From: an uncultured Gammaproteobacteria bacterium
GTDB lineage: Bacteria; Patescibacteriota; Microgenomatia; UBA8517; JACQJR01
Assembly (NCBI GenBank): GCA_964442455.1
Contig: CAYTZB010000001.1
Coordinates: 85,910-149,909 of the forward strand
DNA length: 64,000 bases
Direction: 5' to 3'
This document shows, piece by piece, positions 48,062-62,833 of this stretch (positions are counted from its first letter, which is position 1; the number at the start of each line of letters is the position of its first letter). Both the position numbers and the translations under genes were made by a program. Under the pieces are notes generated by a model. It did no database searches and was not told where the DNA came from. It was given only the letters and a program-made list of their open reading frames with translations.

Positions 48062-48135
48062 GGACCCGTAGCTCAGCTGGTTAGAGCGTTCGATTCACAT
48101 TCGAGAGGTCGATGGTTCGAGTCCATCCGGGTCCA
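48062..48135 (+). tRNA. tRNA-Val (anticodon CAC)
   Basis: Manual cloverleaf: acceptor GGACCCG/CGGGTCC, D arm GCTC-AGCTGGTTA-GAGC, anticodon arm TTCGA-TTCACAT-TCGAG, T arm GATGG-TTCGAGT-CCATC. CCA is not encoded. A TGCTATAAT promoter lies upstream. Confidence 0.9.
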
Positions 48136-48139
48136 CTAA

Positions 48140-54535: not shown

Positions 54536-55812
54536 GAAAAATTCTTTGGTTTTTAGTTTTTTTATACCTTGTTTCATTTCCCTTTGGGCAATTAACAAAA
54601 CTACCGTTATCTCTTCCCTTTCCAGAAATACGAATTTACGCAACAGACGTACTTGTCGGAGTCGTGGGATGTTTGTGGGCAGTAGGGTGGGTGGTGATAA
54701 GGAAGAAACGAAATACACCGCCATTTACTAAAGAGTTATTGGTATTTCTAGCAGTTGCTCTTTTTTCACTCATCCTGAATAGTCCCCTCTTTGAGGGTAG
54801 GGAAGTACTGGTGTCCTCCTTATATCTTATTCGTGTTATTACGTATGTGCTTTTCTATTTTGCGGTAGGGAGCGTTCTAGAAACAGCACAAGAAAAAAAA
54901 TTATTGCTTTCGTCTCTCATTGCAGTTGGGTCCATGCTCGCGGTGTTTGGGTGGGTTCAATATTTTCTGTTTCCGGACATTCGCCCATTCATTGAGTTTG
55001 GCTGGGATGAACATTTGAGCAGGATTGTCGGTACATTTCTCGACCCTAATTTTAGCGCCCTTATTCTTGTTTTGACATTGGTACCACTAACGTTTTCCGC
55101 CTTCGCCAAAGGCTACGGTGGATCCTCCATAGCCTTCAGCGACGGAGGACAATTAATTAAAAAGAAAAGTTTATCGATTTCTCTTTTATGGATTTTTGTA
55201 TTCGTAACGCTTTTATTTACCTATTCCCGCAGCGGCTATCTTACATTTTTAGTTTCAATGGCGGCTATATCATTTTTAATGAAGAAACCGCAACTTTTAC
55301 TCATTTCAGTACTTCTTTTAGTAGTTGGTATCGCGTTGTTGCCGCGGCCCGGTGGTGAAGGCGTACAGCTTGCCCGCACTGCGAGTAACATCGCTCGATT
55401 AGAGAATTGGAGTGAGGCACTTTCGTTTACATCCGACTCTCCCCTTTTTGGAGTAGGATTTAACAATTTACGGTATGTGAGAGAGCGCAAAGGATTACTC
55501 GAAGAACCATATGGGCCCTCTCACGCGGCGGCTGGAATTGATAATAGTTTTTTGTTTGTGCTGGCAACTACAGGAATTGCTGGATTATTAGTGTTTGCAG
55601 CACTGGTTACACAGCTTTTCAAAGCGGCATGGCAGGTCTACCTGCCCCGCCTGCGCGAGCAGGGCAGGCAGGCACGCACGGACGAAGGAAATGCGCTTTT
55701 CGTATCTTTAGTAGCGGTTGTTGCCCATTCTCTATTTTTAAATAGTATGTTTTATCCGTGGGTTATGGGATGGATGGCCGTTCTTTTGGCTCTAACTACA
55801 AGGAGAAAGTAA
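54517..55812 (+). CDS. O-antigen ligase/polymerase-like (Wzy_C) polytopic membrane protein
   Basis: At least 10 TM helices. YSRSGYL motif and a large periplasmic-type loop. Confidence 0.65.
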   Translation: MVTQALRKILWFLVFLYLVSFPFGQLTKLPLSLPFPEIRIYATDVLVGVVGCLWAVGWVVIRKKRNTPPFTKELLVFLAVALFSLILNSPLFEGREVLVSSLYLIRVITYVLFYFAVGSVLETAQEKKLLLSSLIAVGSMLAVFGWVQYFLFPDIRPFIEFGWDEHLSRIVGTFLDPNFSALILVLTLVPLTFSAFAKGYGGSSIAFSDGGQLIKKKSLSISLLWIFVFVTLLFTYSRSGYLTFLVSMAAISFLMKKPQLLLISVLLLVVGIALLPRPGGEGVQLARTASNIARLENWSEALSFTSDSPLFGVGFNNLRYVRERKGLLEEPYGPSHAAAGIDNSFLFVLATTGIAGLLVFAALVTQLFKAAWQVYLPRLREQGRQARTDEGNALFVSLVAVVAHSLFLNSMFYPWVMGWMAVLLALTTRRK

Positions 55813-56509
55813 GAATAAGCTCTTTTTCCGTACTATTTCCCGCCTCATCCATAGCTTTAATAATAAATTTGTTTTCTCCGGGAGAAAGTTTTATTTGGGT
55901 TGAAAAATTGTTTTCCGCATCTTGGGTAACGAGACGGTCATTGACCGATATTTGTGCTTCTTCATTCACCCAACCACGGATAGTAACGGTTTCTTGGCTC
56001 TTGCCTGAAAAATTTGTTGTTTGGGGCTCGGTAATAGCAATCTCAGGTGGCGTGGTATCTAGAGTTACGCTGAGAGGTTCTGAATTTTGACTTTCATTTC
56101 CTGCCTCGTCTTTTGCGCGTGCAACAAAAGTATTTTCCCCCTCAAGAAGGGTTATTCCCTTTTGAAAGAGTGCGCTCTCGTCAGCGGTGACTTTTCCTAG
56201 TTCGCCCCCATTTCGGAAAAGTGTAACTTCCGAGTTTGCCTCGCTTGTACCGGAGATAATGAGGGTTGCGCTATTCGTGGCAAGTTCCAACGTTGAGAAG
56301 CGAGGTATGGGTGGAGGTGTGGTGTCGTTCTTGTTTGCTTGAGAGGTGCTATTGCGCAGATCAGAAATAAATGCGCCTAAGCGGGCAACGGTAGGGATAC
56401 CAAAAAAAATAAGGAGAACGAAGAGAGCGATGGTAAGAAATGTGTAGAGCGCTGCTCGCCTACGATGTTTTCGCTCTTCAACGGTAAGTAGTCGTGAGTA
56501 TCTTCGCAT
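55796..56509 (-). CDS. Membrane-anchored protein with tandem bacterial Ig-like domains
   Basis: N-terminal TM helix present. Two Ig-like units end in NTFVARAKDEAGNESQNSEP...TTPPEI and NKFIIKAMDEAGNSTEKELI. Confidence 0.55.
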   Translation of the reverse strand: MRRYSRLLTVEERKHRRRAALYTFLTIALFVLLIFFGIPTVARLGAFISDLRNSTSQANKNDTTPPPIPRFSTLELATNSATLIISGTSEANSEVTLFRNGGELGKVTADESALFQKGITLLEGENTFVARAKDEAGNESQNSEPLSVTLDTTPPEIAITEPQTTNFSGKSQETVTIRGWVNEEAQISVNDRLVTQDAENNFSTQIKLSPGENKFIIKAMDEAGNSTEKELILTFSL

Positions 56510-56525
56510 TTTTAAAAGCCAAATG

Positions 56526-56597
56526 AGCCGGAGGTGGGATTTGAACCCACGACTTGCTCTTTACGAAAGAGCTACTCTACCGCTGAGTTACTCCGGC
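56526..56597 (-). tRNA. tRNA-Thr (anticodon CGT)
   Basis: Manual cloverleaf: GCCGGAG/CTCCGGC acceptor, ACTC-AGCGGTA-GAGT, GCTCT-TTCGTAA-AGAGC, GTGGG-TTCAAAT-CCCAC. CCA is not encoded. Confidence 0.9.
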
Positions 56598-61280: not shown

Positions 61281-61398
61281 ACTAGGTGAAATTACTTTTG
61301 TGAGCGGGTGACCGTACTTTGCTCGAACCTGTACGATTCAATCACCCCTGACTTGATGTTACAACTTAATATATTGAAAAGCCATTTAGGACACGAGT

Positions 61399-61761
61399 TT
61401 AGTTATTGAATTCAGTAACTGGTTTTGATTCAACGACTCCATTCTTAAAACAAGTTTGGACAAGGTAGTAAGAAAAGTCAGCGTATGGCCATAATTTACC
61501 ATCTGTTGAATATCTCCAACAAATGTAATTAGGATTATTACTTCCATAGTTATGCTTATCAAGTGGTTTACCCAGTATAGCCTCTACTTGTTCTTGAGTC
61601 ATTCCAAGTTCAACTCTGTTAAATTTTTCCCACGCAAAATCTTTAGCAAAAATGGTATCGACATAAGGATTAAATGGAAAATGCATTTCTAAAGAAGAAT
61701 ATAGTTTTAAACCTAGAAGTAAAACGAGGATAGCAAGGACAATCTTAACTTTTTTGTTCAT
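61399..61761 (-). CDS. Small membrane-anchored protein with SmpA/OmlA(BamE)-like fold motif
   Basis: N-terminal TM helix present. GMTQEQVEAILGKP is typical of the SmpA_OmlA/DUF3862-type domain. Confidence 0.4.
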   Translation of the reverse strand: MNKKVKIVLAILVLLLGLKLYSSLEMHFPFNPYVDTIFAKDFAWEKFNRVELGMTQEQVEAILGKPLDKHNYGSNNPNYICWRYSTDGKLWPYADFSYYLVQTCFKNGVVESKPVTEFNN

Positions 61762-61801
61762 AAATCTAACTTTCTGTGTATTTTTGTAGATAACTGTTGA
61801 T

Positions 61802-61844
61802 TGGAGCGGGTGATGGGATTTGAACCCACGGCCTCTTCCTTGGC
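61802..61844 (-). pseudogene. 3' partial tRNA-Gly(GCC)-like fragment (anticodon to CCA)
   Basis: GCCAAGGAAGAGGCCGTGGGTTCAAATCCCATCACCCGCTCCA has a T arm (GTGGG-TTCAAAT-CCCAT), a Gly-type acceptor 3' strand and U73-CCA. No matching 5' half (GCGGGTG...) is present. Confidence 0.6.
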
Positions 61845-61855
61845 CCTGCCATTTC

Positions 61856-61929
61856 TGGAGCGGGATACGGGAGTCGAACCCGTCTTTCTACCATGGGAAG
61901 GTAGTGTTGAGCCGCTCAACTAATCCCGC
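61856..61929 (-). tRNA. tRNA-Gly (anticodon CCC), CCA encoded
   Basis: GCGGGAT/ATCCCGC acceptor, GTTG-AGCGGCT-CAAC, CTACC-TTCCCAT-GGTAG, ACGGG-TTCGACT-CCCGT, and U73-CCA. Confidence 0.9.
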
Positions 61930-61945
61930 ATAGGATATGGCGGGG

Positions 61946-61965
61946 TACCGCTGAACTACGTCCGC
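61946..61965 (-). pseudogene. 5' partial tRNA fragment (acceptor 5' strand + D-arm 5' half)
   Basis: GCGGACGTAGTTCAGCGGTA matches positions 1-21 of Gly-type tRNAs and then diverges (no GAAC D-stem return). It is preceded by a TGTGGTAAAAT -10 element (plus-strand 61983-61993). Confidence 0.55.
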
Positions 61966-62035
61966 ACTTCATCTTTCTTTTCATTTTACCACAACCACAA
62001 AGACAGGCTTTTAATTAAATGAAACCTATGCGAAA

Positions 62036-62593
62036 TTAGCGGGGTAGGTTCAAAATGTTCCCTGCGTGAATAAGGTCGGGATTTGCTAATTCATTCGCTT
62101 GGGCTATTTTTACCCACTGATACCCATCTCCATACGCTCGAACCGCAATATTCCAGAGATTATCATCTCGCACAACAGTATAAGAGTCACCAGTGATAGC
62201 ATTACCTGATATATCAGCAGAAACAGTGGGAGATGTCGCTGCCTGTACTACTTTCGGTTCAACTTTAGGAATTATTAATGTTTGTCCTACTGCGAGTAAA
62301 TTTGCATTCAAAAGATTATTTTCACGCGCTATATCCACCCAGTTGTAACCTGAATTGTAATATTTTTCGGCAATTCCCCACAGGTTTTCACCAGCGCTTA
62401 CCGTATGTTCTGTAGGCAAGGTGGGTGTTAGTCTTTCCTCTGTTGTTATAGATCCGGGAGTTGTAGTGGTTCGTAGTCCTCGGAAATAGTTGATAACTAG
62501 GATACCGACGACTACCACCACAATTGCACCAAGTAGCATGCTTATTGTTCCTTCATTAAGCTTAACTGCCTTGAGTATATTTTTAAGGTCCAT
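62036..62593 (-). CDS. LysM-repeat protein (two LysM domains, N-terminal TM anchor)
   Basis: HTVSAGENLWGIAEKYYNSGYNWVDIARENNL...GQTLIIP and YTVVRDDNLWNIAVRAYGDGYQWVKIAQANEL...GNILNLP. ATG 62593 with SD GGAAGGAGGTG is preferred over the ORF-track start 62665. Confidence 0.8.
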   Translation of the reverse strand: MDLKNILKAVKLNEGTISMLLGAIVVVVVGILVINYFRGLRTTTTPGSITTEERLTPTLPTEHTVSAGENLWGIAEKYYNSGYNWVDIARENNLLNANLLAVGQTLIIPKVEPKVVQAATSPTVSADISGNAITGDSYTVVRDDNLWNIAVRAYGDGYQWVKIAQANELANPDLIHAGNILNLPR

Positions 62594-62684
62594 TATGTGA
62601 CTTTTCACCTCCTTCCTTGATATAGGCAGGCCTGCCTGCGCAGACAGGAGTTTGTGAGCAGTCAATAAAAGTTTAGCTGTTCTG

Positions 62685-62757
62685 CGGACCCGACCGGAAT
62701 CGAACCGGCGATCTTCCGCGTGACAGGCGGATGTGTTAACCGCTACACCACGGGTCC
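62685..62757 (-). tRNA. tRNA-Asp (anticodon GTC)
   Basis: GGACCCG/CGGGTCC acceptor, GTGT-AGCGGTTA-ACAC, TCCGC-CTGTCAC-GCGGA, GCCGG-TTCGATT-CCGGT, and G73. CCA is not encoded. Confidence 0.9.
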
Positions 62758-62833
62758 ATTTTGCTTACTATATCATAAGCTTCTTGGTCTCGTCAACAAG
62801 AGGTGATATTATTAAAGTGCCAACCTTTGTAGG

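What the first reader, a model, noticed from the sequence alone, without database searches (positions are those of the whole stretch)
61802..61993. tRNA-Gly(CCC) nested between a 5' tRNA fragment and a 3' tRNA-Gly(GCC)-like fragment, enclosed by a 9-bp helix
Read on the minus strand, the locus is laid out as follows.
1. A TGTGGTAAAAT -10 element.
2. GCGGACGTAGTTCAGCGGTA, which corresponds to positions 1-21 of a Gly-type tRNA; the D-stem return is missing.
3. CCCCGCCAT-ATCCTAT.
4. A complete tRNA-Gly(CCC) with encoded CCA (61856-61929).
5. GAA-ATGGCAGGG.
6. GCCAAGGAAGAGGCC-GTGGGTTCAAATCCCAT-CACCCGC-T-CCA, which runs from a GCC anticodon through a T arm to the acceptor 3' strand, U73 and CCA.
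CCCCGCCAT and ATGGCAGGG can pair (9 bp with one C-A mismatch), so the intact tRNA sits in a closed loop with symmetric 7-nt linkers. The outer acceptor strands (GCGGACG / CACCCGC) pair at only 5 of 7 positions.

Three interpretations are possible:
- Scars of successive integration or excision events at a tRNA-Gly gene, i.e. att-site duplications.
- An old tandem tRNA-Gly array that has partly decayed.
- A genuine gene-within-gene transcript in which RNase P/Z release the inner tRNA and leave two paired half-molecules.
The third would be novel for bacteria but is the least likely.
Basis: partly seen in the sequence, partly recalled or inferred. Interest (0 to 1): 0.55.

Follow-up and report, generated by a model that had tools for sequence, protein, structure and literature searches.

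The report
Live tRNA-Gly gene inside dead tRNA-Gly relics
A working glycine tRNA gene sits between the leftover front and back pieces of an older glycine tRNA gene in a Patescibacteria (CPR) genome; this is most likely a snapshot of one tRNA gene replacing another at the DNA level, not a functional gene within a gene.

Summary
On the minus strand, 61965-61802 reads: 20-nt tRNA-Gly 5' piece, CCCCGCCAT, 7 nt, complete tRNA-Gly(CCC) with CCA (61929-61856), GAA, ATGGCAGGG, then a 42/43-nt tRNA-Gly 3' piece with U73-CCA.

Seven relatives that share the flanking genes (LysM protein upstream and/or a BamE-like protein downstream) each carry one un-nested tRNA-Gly there. It is either an "R-type" like the outer pieces or a "type-I" like the inner gene. 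So the outer pieces are relics of the resident gene or genes, and the inner gene is the live one.

- No way of removing the insert turns the outer pieces into a detectable tRNA. The D-stem return and the anticodon-stem 5' strand are missing, and the acceptor pairs at only 5 of 7 positions.
- No second att copy exists in the window, and no integrase or transposase was found among the ORFs scanned from 37.7 to 64 kb.
- The 9-bp helix is unusual (top ~3% of tRNA flanks) but not decisive.

How the arrangement arose is unresolved: one insertion into one gene, decay of a three-gene cluster, or a whittled-down mobile element. Two metagenome loci (L019, L022) show a similar tRNA-Gly-inside-tRNA-Gly layout with longer flanking inverted repeats, so it recurs. 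Interest is modest.

The parts
61983..61993 (-). Extended -10 promoter element TGTGGTAAAAT, 17 nt upstream of the 5' relic. It probably drives the whole locus.
   Evidence: Sequence. TGCTAAAAT or TTAAAAT aligns at the same place upstream of the single tRNA-Gly in L049, L050 and L048 (alignment A2). The simple -35/-10 scan did not flag it because it has no -35 match.
61946..61965 (-). 5' relic GCGGACGTAGTTCAGCGGTA: positions 1-21 of an R-type tRNA-Gly (acceptor 5' strand, U8 A9, D-stem 5' strand, D loop). The D-stem return is absent.
   Evidence: It matches 17/20 to the resident tRNA-Gly of L050, L051 and L056, against 15-16/20 to type-I genes. It is unique in the window.
61937..61945 (-). CCCCGCCAT: 5' strand of the 9-bp helix. 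With the preceding GTA it reads GTACCCCGC-CA, which may be the relic of a tRNA 3' end (acceptor 3' strand plus CCA).
   Evidence: and the fold. GTACCCCGC is identical (9/9) to the 3' relic in L050 (p about 0.05 by shuffling). By my own reading of the two sequences it also resembles the L056 tRNA 3' end plus flank, CCGCTCCATATC.
61930..61936 (-). 7-nt linker ATCCTAT between the helix and the inner tRNA.
   Evidence: Together with the inner 5' end it forms a 15-nt inverted repeat (13/15) with 62025-62039 (I2).
61856..61929 (-). Intact type-I tRNA-Gly(CCC) with U73 and encoded CCA: the functional gene.
   Evidence: ARAGORN and Rfam, 56.2 bits. It is 65/74 identical to the single tRNA-Gly(UCC) at the BamE-linked locus of L049. 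It is nearly identical (4 differences in the body, by eye) to the single tRNA-Gly(CCC) after LysM in L055.
61853..61855 (-). GAA, 3' linker.
61844..61852 (-). ATGGCAGGG: 3' strand of the 9-bp helix.
   Evidence: Its resemblance to the start of the conserved downstream flank (CAGATTGGCAG in L053) is not significant (p 0.1-0.3).
61802..61843 (-). 3' relic: positions about 35-76 of an R-type tRNA-Gly (CC-AA, anticodon-stem 3' strand GGAAG, variable AGGCC, T arm GTGGG-TTCAAAT-CCCAT, acceptor 3' strand CACCCGC, U73, CCA).
   Evidence: It matches 34/43 to the L050 resident tRNA. Its last 28 nt match 25/28 to the BamE-linked tRNA of L047, the best of all comparisons. Logan unitigs confirm it.
61762..61801 (-). 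Conserved flank (ATCAACAGTTATCTAC...AGAAAGTTAGATTT) between the tRNA 3' end and the start codon of the BamE-like gene.
   Evidence: It aligns with the sequence that follows the single tRNA-Gly in L049, L048 and L053, and the 3' relic in L050. No terminator-like site is predicted in 61300-62800.
61399..61761 (-). 120-aa BamE-domain protein gene, the downstream synteny anchor.
   Evidence: Pfam BamE. Homologues P0010-P0018 each lie just downstream of a tRNA-Gly.
62036..62665 (-). LysM-domain protein gene, the upstream synteny anchor.
   Evidence: Pfam LysM. The order PolX / tRNA-Asp / LysM / tRNA-Gly is shared with L050, L055 and L056.

Best explanation
The locus is a gene replacement caught half-finished at the DNA level.

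**What each piece is.** The two outer pieces are dead relics of the R-type tRNA-Gly gene or genes that normally sit between the LysM gene and the BamE-like gene in this Microgenomates/Patescibacteria lineage. The complete type-I tRNA-Gly(CCC) between them is the only functional gene.

**How it is expressed (inferred).**
- Transcription starts at the conserved extended -10 promoter (TGnTAAAAT), 17 nt upstream of the 5' relic.
- The transcript runs through the relic leader, the inner tRNA and the relic trailer. No terminator is predicted, so it may continue into the BamE-like mRNA.
- RNase P cuts at G1 of the inner tRNA, and its encoded CCA end is exposed by 3' trimming.
- The relic pieces are by-products.
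- The 9-bp leader/trailer helix is either fortuitous or a mild folding aid. It is not part of a split tRNA.

**How it arose (unresolved).** My rough weights, conditional on this DNA-relic reading, are:
1. About 45%: a roughly 100-nt segment carrying the type-I gene was inserted into one resident gene, with loss or overwriting of positions 22-33.
2. About 35%: a three-gene cluster decayed. It would have been a LysM-linked R-type gene, the type-I gene, and a BamE-linked R-type gene. The first lost its middle and the third lost its 5' half.
3. About 15-20%: a mobile element interrupted the resident gene, brought its own tRNA-Gly, and was later deleted down to that now-needed tRNA.

**Shown versus inferred.** Shown: the anatomy, the un-nested state in relatives, and the failure of the outer pieces to form a tRNA. 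Inferred: transcription, processing and the order of events.
For: 1. **Relatives carry one intact gene at the same locus.**
   - L048: GCC, no CCA.
   - L049: UCC, type-I, 65/74 identical to the inner gene.
   - L050: CCC, R-type, with tRNA-Asp and LysM upstream.
   - L053: CCC, R-type, with LysM upstream.
   - L051: GCC, R-type.
   - L055: CCC, type-I, nearly identical to the inner gene, after LysM.
   - L056: CCC, R-type with CCA, after LysM.
   - Sources.
2. **The outer pieces are of the resident type.** The promoter and the downstream flank of the window align with those of the relatives, outside the outer pieces. The outer pieces match R-type genes best: 17/20 and 34/43, with the last 28 nt matching 25/28 to L047.
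3. **The outer pieces cannot make a tRNA.** ARAGORN run with its intron option and lowered score thresholds (-i -ps) finds only the inner gene in the full locus. It finds nothing in three constructs with the insert removed. Rfam at E<=10 finds no second tRNA. The acceptor pairs at 5 of 7, and both the D-stem return and the anticodon-stem 5' strand are missing.
4. **The neighbourhood is core genome.** It holds PolX, tRNA-Asp, LysM, TypA, glycosyltransferases, IleRS, FtsW and ParB, with no recombinase.
5. **A half-replaced state exists elsewhere.** L050 has an intact R-type gene followed about 50 nt later by a relic GTACCCCGCTCCA next to the conserved flank.
6. **The layout is not an assembly quirk of this genome.** It recurs in L019 and L022, and Logan unitigs confirm the 3' junction here.
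Against: - **T arm intact.** The T arm of the 3' relic is fully paired. G1-C72, C2-G71, G3-C70 and U73 (Gly identity elements, from general knowledge) are intact across the two pieces. That is more order than expected from long decay, so the event is recent or there is some constraint.
- **Helix above chance.** The 9-bp flanking helix with symmetric 7-nt linkers lies in the top 3% of tRNA flanks. L019 and L022 also have flanking helices with symmetric linkers (6/6 and 4/4, my reading). That hints at a rule rather than an accident.
- **Encoded CCA unexplained.** The inner gene and the 3' relic both encode CCA, while the other three tRNAs in the window do not. The model does not explain this.
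- **No donor locus.** No sequence carrying the linker sequences was found.
- **5' junction unverified.** It has no independent assembly support.
- **No orthologous nested locus.** Selection on the outer pieces therefore could not be tested either way.
Confidence: 0.75

Rival explanations
1. Remnant of a mobile element. An integrating element cut the resident tRNA-Gly gene without rebuilding it and supplied its own tRNA-Gly, as in tRNA-dependent lysogeny. Genome reduction then deleted everything except the now-essential tRNA. The short inverted repeats at the ends of the insert would be leftovers of the recombinase binding sites.
For: - The topology (host 5' part, foreign same-isotype tRNA, host 3' part) is what tRNA-dependent lysogeny produces (PMC10865867).
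- L019 has the same layout, split exactly at anticodon position 35|36 with 16 paired bases in its inverted repeats. A phage-type large serine recombinase gene lies 200 nt away.
- L022 carries, about 25 nt upstream of its nested tRNA-Gly, a perfect 28-nt direct repeat of a tRNA-Thr 3' end plus flank. The copies are 139 nt apart, which looks like an integration scar shrunk to about 110 nt.
- Many metagenome loci show a tRNA-Gly followed directly by a 3' fragment.
- Encoded CCA on the inner gene is atypical for this genome.
Against: - No integrase, transposase or phage gene was found among the ORFs scanned from 37.7 to 64 kb, and the flanks are core genes in conserved order.
- No shared core or direct repeat exists at the two junctions, and 12-13 nt of the host gene are missing, so the junctions are not those of a conservative site-specific event.
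- The inner gene is not foreign-looking. Nearly the same gene is the normal resident at this locus in L055 and L049.
- The linker motifs of the window and of L019/L022 were not found as att-like sites in viral contigs, and a phage BLAST found only generic tRNA-Gly similarity.
Confidence: 0.13
2. Functional nested transcript. The inner tRNA is released by RNase P and 3' processing. The two outer pieces stay paired through the 9-bp helix and the partial acceptor stem, forming a two-piece tRNA-like RNA with a T arm, U73 and CCA. Alternatively, the enclosing tRNA-like scaffold directs processing of the inner tRNA or of the downstream mRNA.
For: - The fold of the whole locus is more stable than shuffles (z = -2.8) and uses the outer acceptor (4 bp), the 9-bp helix, a GGCC hairpin in the variable-arm position and the T arm.
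- The linkers are symmetric, and the acceptor-end Gly identity elements are intact.
- L019 and L022 have much stronger enclosing helices (z = -3.7 and -4.6).
- There is a precedent for a tRNA enclosed by a helix inside a larger RNA: GOLLD RNAs in L018 and L031.
Against: - Closest relatives lack the arrangement entirely, so there is no conservation or covariation to support it.
- The outer molecule has no anticodon arm and no D stem, and no spliced form is recognised as a tRNA.
- In L019 the outer piece lacks the acceptor 5' strand. In L022 it lacks everything 5' of the anticodon stem. The 'outer tRNA' is therefore incomplete in a different way in each case, as expected for relics.
- No bulge-helix-bulge motif is present, and bacteria are not known to have the matching splicing endonuclease (general knowledge).
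Confidence: 0.05
3. Assembly artefact. The metagenome assembler joined reads from two or three tRNA-Gly loci or strains through shared tRNA k-mers, creating a chimeric nested layout.
For: - tRNA sequences are repeated within and between community members.
- Logan unitigs break inside the inner T arm (L001) and inside the 3' relic (L002). This shows that those 31-mers have more than one context in the samples.
- The 5' junction has no independent support.
Against: - The junction from the inner tRNA through GAAATGGCAGGG and the 3' relic into the flank and the BamE-like gene is reproduced exactly in a unitig from another sample (L001).
- The linker sequences are unique, not repeats. The outer pieces differ from the inner gene (14/20 and 25/42 ungapped), so there is no long shared k-mer to mis-join at the junctions.
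- Similar layouts occur in independent assemblies (L019, L022).
Confidence: 0.05

Closest known systems
tRNA-dependent lysogeny (Guerrero-Bustamante and Hatfull 2024, PMC10865867)
   Same: A host tRNA gene is cut into a 5' part and a 3' part that no longer make a tRNA. [quoted passage not shown]
   Different: In that system a whole prophage with a tyrosine integrase lies between the parts, and attP and attB share a core of about 10 bp. Here only about 100 nt lie between the parts. No integrase is nearby, no shared core is seen, and the incoming gene is a normal chromosomal type in relatives.
tRNA 3'-fragment direct repeats left by integrative elements (att sites overlapping tRNA genes; classical knowledge, many examples)
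   Same: A partial tRNA-Gly 3' end, running from the anticodon loop to CCA, lies just downstream of an intact tRNA-Gly.
   Different: att repeats copy the 3' part of the adjacent tRNA and bound an island. Here the fragment belongs to a different tRNA-Gly lineage (21/26 identity to the inner 3' end). There is also a 5' fragment upstream, and there is no island or second copy.
Archaeal disrupted tRNA genes: intron-containing, split and permuted tRNAs, and the mobile-element model for their origin (Sugahara et al. 2012, PMC3293823)
   Same: 5' and 3' tRNA pieces are separated by inserted DNA. Complementary sequences next to the pieces can pair. The origin is ascribed to DNA insertion or recombination.
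   Different: Archaeal cases keep a complete set of tRNA parts, have a bulge-helix-bulge motif, and are spliced by a dedicated endonuclease and ligase. Here parts are missing, no such motif is present, and the organism is a bacterium.
GOLLD RNA with an embedded tRNA (Rfam RF02032; seen in L018 and L031)
   Same: A complete tRNA lies inside a longer transcript and is closed off by a helix formed from its flanks.
   Different: GOLLD is a large conserved structured RNA of roughly 460 nt or more, found in phage-like tRNA arrays. The window locus has no Rfam match besides the inner tRNA, and its flanks are tRNA fragments.
Group I introns in tRNA genes of Patescibacteria (PMC13011429)
   Same: tRNA genes of the same phylum are interrupted by inserted sequence.
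   Different: Those inserts are self-splicing group I ribozymes that restore a complete tRNA. Here the insert is a tRNA plus short linkers, and no complete outer tRNA can be restored.

Membership tests
Bacterial elongator tRNA-Gly gene (inner element) | Complete cloverleaf with a Gly anticodon, detected by tRNA models. | tested here: met
   ARAGORN calls tRNA-Gly(CCC) at 61856-61929. Rfam RF00005 scores 56.2 bits against a gathering score of 29.
Bacterial elongator tRNA-Gly gene (inner element) | Gly acceptor-end identity set: U73, G1-C72, C2-G71, G3-C70 (general knowledge). | tested here: met
   GCGGGAT...ATCCCGC-T-CCA, read directly.
Intron-containing or split tRNA (outer element) | Removing the insert yields a complete cloverleaf. 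| tested here: not met
   ARAGORN -i -ps finds no tRNA in three excision constructs. The D-stem return and the anticodon-stem 5' strand are absent, and the acceptor pairs at 5 of 7.
Intron-containing or split tRNA (outer element) | Bulge-helix-bulge motif at the exon-insert junctions (two 3-nt bulges 4 bp apart). | tested here: not met
   The junction helix is a plain 9-bp stem with one C-A mismatch. No such bulges are present.
Intron-containing or split tRNA (outer element) | Splicing endonuclease and RNA ligase encoded by the organism. | not tested
   Only a 64-kb window is available. About half of its larger ORFs (37.7-64 kb) were run against Pfam, and these enzymes were not specifically searched for.
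Integrase att-site duplication at a tRNA gene | The fragment is a near-identical direct repeat of the 3' part of the adjacent intact tRNA. | tested here: not met
   Only 21/26 identical over the 3' ends (D1). The T loop is TTCAAAT against TTCGACT, and the anticodon stem and variable region are of another tRNA-Gly type.
Integrase att-site duplication at a tRNA gene | Integrase gene and island between or beside the repeats, with a second copy bounding the island. | tested here: not met
   No second copy in the 64-kb window. No recombinase appears in Pfam scans of ORFs from 37.7 to 64 kb. DNA beyond 64000 could not be examined.
tRNA-dependent-lysogeny-type disruption | Host tRNA split into non-functional 5' and 3' parts, with a same-isotype tRNA supplied between them. 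| tested here: met
   5' relic, type-I tRNA-Gly(CCC), 3' relic.
tRNA-dependent-lysogeny-type disruption | Prophage or element body with an integrase between the parts, and a short common core at both junctions. | tested here: not met
   Only 16 + 74 + 12 nt lie between the parts, and no repeated core is seen at the junctions.
Decayed tandem tRNA-Gly cluster | Relatives show intact tandem tRNA-Gly genes, or intermediate decay states, at the same locus. | tested here: inconclusive
   Seven relatives have a single gene. L050 has an extra 3' relic downstream. GTACCCCGC at the 5' junction of the window matches that relic 9/9 (p about 0.05). No intact tandem pair was seen.
GOLLD or other known structured RNA enclosing a tRNA | Match to an Rfam covariance model across the flanks. 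| tested here: not met
   cmscan of 61500-62300 at E<=10 gives only the inner tRNA plus sub-threshold chance hits.

The most novel reading that the evidence does not exclude
The window locus, L019 and L022 may be three instances of an undescribed kind of very small tRNA-Gly 'replacement cassette'. Each would be a complete tRNA-Gly gene bounded by short inverted repeats with symmetric linkers. The cassette would insert into the D or anticodon region of a resident tRNA-Gly gene, kill it and take over its promoter. The enclosing helix might act at the RNA level to present the inner tRNA for processing, or at the DNA level as the recombination site. Such an element would be a selfish tRNA gene that spreads by making itself indispensable.
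Probability: 0.1. Interest if true: 0.7.

Novelty: new variant of a known kind. Interest (0 to 1): 0.33.

Why it matters
The locus gives a rare intermediate picture of how a tRNA gene is swapped for a different copy in a reduced genome. Across relatives this one position carries tRNA-Gly genes of at least three backbones and all three anticodons detected (CCC, GCC, UCC). The window preserves both the old and the new gene in one place.

For annotation, it is a warning that tRNA-like fragments with an intact T arm, U73 and CCA can flank a real gene without being functional. It would matter more if the inverted-repeat-bounded layout shared with L019 and L022 turned out to be a dedicated insertion mechanism.

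Tried and rejected
**Searches that found nothing useful**
- **Genome contigs, inner-tRNA pattern:** no hit.
- **Genome contigs, 253-aa neighbour family:** no confirmed locus. Both scans of that collection are now used.
- **Exact look-up of the window's own 120-aa and 209-aa proteins:** not on record. The contig of the 83%-identical relative L003 starts 63 nt upstream of its 250-aa gene, so it does not reach the tRNA locus.
- **Viral contig scans:**
  - The L019/L022 linker motif gave nothing.
  - The window linker motif gave one chance hit inside a coding region (L046).
  - The pattern 'tRNA-Gly followed closely by a T arm' gave only a phage tRNA array (L054).
  - A palindromic attP-like pattern built from the L019 repeats gave one chance hit (L057).
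- **BLAST of the locus against phage genomes:** only a generic 45-nt tRNA-Gly match.

**Ideas tested and dropped**
- **Linker copies the downstream flank:** the idea that GAAATGGCAGGG copies the start of the conserved flank was tested by shuffling and is not significant (p 0.1-0.3).
- **Clean 90-nt intron in the D loop:** removing CCCCGCCATATCCTAT plus the inner tRNA leaves exactly 74 nt. The anticodon stem of that product does not pair, and ARAGORN rejects it.
- **Archaeal-type splicing:** rejected because there is no bulge-helix-bulge motif and the gene content is bacterial.

**Literature searches** found no description of a tRNA gene nested in tRNA fragments.
Full report
**Observation**

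Read on the minus strand, the locus runs as follows:
- TGTGGTAAAAT (61993-61983), then 17 nt
- GCGGACGTAGTTCAGCGGTA (61965-61946)
- CCCCGCCAT (61945-61937)
- ATCCTAT (61936-61930)
- a complete tRNA-Gly(CCC) with U73 and encoded CCA (61929-61856)
- GAA, then ATGGCAGGG (61852-61844)
- CCAAGGAAGAGGCC GTGGG TTCAAAT CCCAT CACCCGC T CCA (61843-61802)

ARAGORN and Rfam detect only the inner gene. The two outer pieces are unique in the 64-kb window, and shuffles expect no such matches. The 164-nt stretch folds with a 4-bp outer acceptor, the 9-bp helix, the inner cloverleaf, a GGCC hairpin and the outer T arm, at z = -2.8 against shuffles.

Two Logan unitigs from other sequencing runs reproduce the sequence exactly. 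L001 runs from the inner T arm through the linker and the 3' piece into the downstream gene, and L002 from within the 3' piece onward. The 5' junction has no independent support.

**Organism and context**

The neighbours are a LysM protein upstream and a 120-aa BamE-domain protein downstream, with tRNA-Asp and a PolX-type polymerase further upstream. TypA, glycosyltransferases, IleRS, FtsW and ParB lie further along. LysM homologues are named Woesebacteria, Microgenomates or Patescibacteria by their sources, so this is a CPR bacterium. No integrase, transposase or phage gene appears among the ORFs scanned between 37.7 kb and the window end. The other three tRNA genes in the window (Val, Thr, Asp) do not encode CCA, whereas both Gly elements do.

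**Relatives**

Homologues of the BamE-like protein and of the LysM protein led to seven loci that share one or both anchors. Each has a single, un-nested tRNA-Gly.

| Locus | Anchor protein identity | tRNA-Gly | Context and notes |
|---|---|---|---|
| L048 | BamE-like, 82% | GCC, a third backbone | BamE-linked |
| L049 | BamE-like, 79% | UCC, type-I | 65/74 identical to the window's inner gene |
| L050 | BamE-like, 69% | CCC, R-type | PolX / tRNA-Asp / LysM upstream |
| L053 | BamE-like, 66% | CCC, R-type | LysM upstream |
| L051 | BamE-like, 64% | GCC, R-type | BamE-linked |
| L055 | LysM, 64% | CCC, type-I | Nearly identical to the inner gene; tRNA-Asp / LysM upstream |
| L056 | LysM, 62% | CCC, R-type, with CCA | LysM-linked |

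An eighth contig, L047 (81%), begins inside an R-like T arm.

The promoter element and the 40-nt flank before the BamE-like start codon align across these loci, outside the window's outer pieces.

**How the window's pieces compare**

- The outer pieces match R-type genes best: 17/20 for the 5' piece and 34/43 for the 3' piece.
- The last 28 nt of the 3' piece match L047 at 25/28, the best of all comparisons.
- The diagnostic R-type features are the TTCAAAT T loop, the GGAAG anticodon-stem strand and the AGGYC variable region.

The outer pieces are therefore what is left of the gene type that normally lives here. The inner gene is a second type that is the normal resident at the same place in other relatives.

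**Can the outer pieces function as a tRNA?**

No. Positions 22-33 (D-stem return, position 26, anticodon-stem 5' strand) have no counterpart. The acceptor strands GCGGACG and CACCCGC pair at 5 of 7. I built three constructs:
1. Insert removed so as to leave exactly 74 nt.
2. Everything between the pieces removed.
3. Only the inner tRNA and its linkers removed.

ARAGORN, run with its intron option and lowered score thresholds (-i -ps), finds no tRNA in any of them. In the full locus it finds only the inner gene. There is no bulge-helix-bulge motif.

**How unusual is the 9-bp helix?**

Five reach 8 or more matched pairs, including the window and L019. The helix is therefore unusual at about the 3% level, which is not decisive.

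Two leads on where the linkers came from were checked:
- GTACCCCGC at the 5' junction is identical to a tRNA 3'-end relic in L050 (p about 0.05). By eye it also resembles the 3' end plus flank of the L056 gene (CCGCTCCATATC).
- The 3' linker's resemblance to the conserved downstream flank is not significant (p 0.1-0.3).

**Origin**

Three DNA-level histories fit.

*(a) A single insertion into one resident gene.* A segment of about 100 nt carrying the type-I gene entered the gene, and positions 22-33 were lost.
- In favour: the pieces cover complementary parts (1-21 and about 35-76), lie in the right order, and are both R-type. Relatives that have both anchors carry one gene. L019 shows an exact split.

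*(b) Decay of a three-gene cluster.* The cluster would have formed where a LysM-linked and a BamE-linked tRNA-Gly locus came together.
- In favour: the two outer acceptor strands do not match each other, as expected for two different genes. The 5' junction looks like a tRNA 3' end. L050 preserves a two-unit state, with an intact gene plus a 3' relic next to the conserved flank.

*(c) A mobile element.* It would have cut the gene, brought its own tRNA and then been deleted down to that tRNA. This is the logic of tRNA-dependent lysogeny (PMC10865867).
- In favour: only indirect evidence from other loci.
- Against: no recombinase, no repeated core at the junctions, and an inner gene that looks native.

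I weight these roughly 45 / 35 / 15-20 within the relic model. In all three the outer pieces are relics.

**Similar loci elsewhere**

A metagenome scan looked for a tRNA-Gly 3' end followed within 15-45 nt by another T arm. It returned 42 loci. Most are an intact tRNA-Gly followed by a direct copy of its own 3' part, the familiar integration-site pattern. Two are truly nested.

*L019*
- The order is tRNA positions 8-35, a 23-nt arm, 6 nt, a full tRNA-Gly(UCC), a 22-nt arm, then positions 36-76.
- The arms pair over 7 + 9 bp. The outer pieces are 100% identical to the matching parts of the inner gene.
- A phage-type large serine recombinase gene and reverse-transcriptase fragments lie just downstream.

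*L022*
- It has homologous arms (CTCCGTAGCA / CTGCGGAGGACGGGCAAGGTT) around a tRNA-Gly(CCC).
- On the 5' side only an anticodon-stem strand of the outer gene remains, and a terminator follows the outer CCA.
- About 25 nt upstream of the nested gene lies a 28-nt perfect direct repeat of a tRNA-Thr 3' end, copies 139 nt apart.

In each case the outer gene is incomplete in a different way. That fits relics better than a designed split tRNA. The recurrence of inverted-repeat arms with symmetric linkers (7/7, 6/6, 4/4 by direct reading) keeps open the possibility of a dedicated insertion mechanism. The arm sequences of the window are not detectably related to those of L019 and L022.

**Comparison with known systems**

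The closest functional analogy is tRNA-dependent lysogeny, but the defining element body, integrase and common core are absent. Classical att duplications fail because the 3' piece is not a copy of the adjacent tRNA. Archaeal split or intron-containing tRNAs fail on completeness and on the splicing motif. GOLLD RNAs, found by chance in L018 and L031, do enclose a tRNA with a helix, but they are unrelated. Group I introns in Patescibacteria tRNA genes (PMC13011429) are a different kind of interruption. I found no paper describing a tRNA gene nested in tRNA fragments.

**Verdict**

The feature is real and somewhat unusual. It is best read as a DNA-level replacement of a resident tRNA-Gly gene, with only the inner gene functional (confidence about 0.75). 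It is a new variant of a known kind of event (tRNA gene disruption and replacement relics), and interest is modest (0.33). The most novel reading not excluded is a class of tiny inverted-repeat-bounded tRNA-Gly replacement cassettes (probability about 0.1).

Noticed in passing
window 48062-48136, 56525-56597, 62684-62757 versus 61802-61929: The Val, Thr and Asp tRNA genes do not encode CCA. The inner tRNA-Gly and the outer 3' relic both do. Among relatives, encoded CCA at this locus is variable: present in L047 and L056, absent in L048, L050, L051, L053 and L055, and CCG in L049.
   Followed up: partly
L048:685-756, L049:2875-2947, L050:3847-3919, L051:2984-3056, L053:885-956, L055:3076-3147, L056:3063-3138: The tRNA-Gly at one syntenic position (after LysM and/or before the BamE-like gene) has three different anticodons (CCC, GCC, UCC) and at least three different backbones across related Microgenomates genomes. 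This points to unusually fast turnover of a tRNA gene at a fixed locus.
   Followed up: partly
L050:3920-3985: About 50 nt downstream of the intact tRNA-Gly(CCC) lies a relic GTACCCCGCTCCA (acceptor 3' strand, U73, CCA), directly followed by the conserved flank. This is a second example of a leftover tRNA-Gly 3' end at this locus.
   Followed up: partly
L019:2803-2997 and L019:3197-4555: A tRNA-Gly(UCC) is nested exactly at anticodon position 35|36 of a second copy, bounded by inverted repeats that pair over 16 bases. The outer pieces are 100% identical to the inner gene. A large serine recombinase gene lies 200 nt downstream, followed by reverse-transcriptase fragments.
   Followed up: partly
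L022:825-1000 and L022:987-1153: A tRNA-Gly(CCC) is nested with arms homologous to those of L019. About 25 nt upstream of it, a perfect 28-nt direct repeat of the tRNA-Thr 3' end plus flank has copies 139 nt apart. This looks like an integration scar reduced to about 110 nt.
   Followed up: partly
L018:1636-2100, L031:1176-1636: GOLLD RNAs (Rfam RF02032, 205 and 168 bits) each contain a tRNA-like gene closed by an 11-bp flank helix (perfect in L031, one mismatch in L018), within phage-like tRNA arrays.
   Followed up: yes
window 62025-62039 and 61920-61934: A 15-nt inverted repeat (13/15 complementary) links the sequence just after the LysM stop codon (CTAATTTCGCATAGG) with the linker plus 5' end of the inner tRNA (CCTATGCGGGATTAG). 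By my own rough estimate about 0.07 such repeats are expected by chance in a 400-nt region. It may be a trace of the rearrangement.
   Followed up: no
L001:1-31, L002:1-32: Logan unitigs break at AGACGGGTTCGACTCCCGTATCCCGCTCCA (inner T arm) and at GGCCGTGGGTTCAAATCCCATCACCCGCTCC (3' relic). These 30-31-mers therefore also occur in another context in the same samples, probably intact paralogous tRNA-Gly genes of both types.
   Followed up: no
L025, L036, L034, L037, L041 and others: Many metagenome contigs carry a tRNA-Gly followed immediately by one or more direct copies of its own 3' half. Some copies have an altered, enlarged anticodon-loop region (L023, L032, L037, L039, L041, L044), and some form arrays of two or three units.
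   Followed up: no
window 55796-56597 versus L053:1517-2313: A tRNA-Thr(CGT) next to an Ig-domain (Big_6 / Glucodextran_B) protein follows the BamE-like gene directly in L053. In the window it lies about 5 kb away, with TypA and four other ORFs in between.
   Followed up: no
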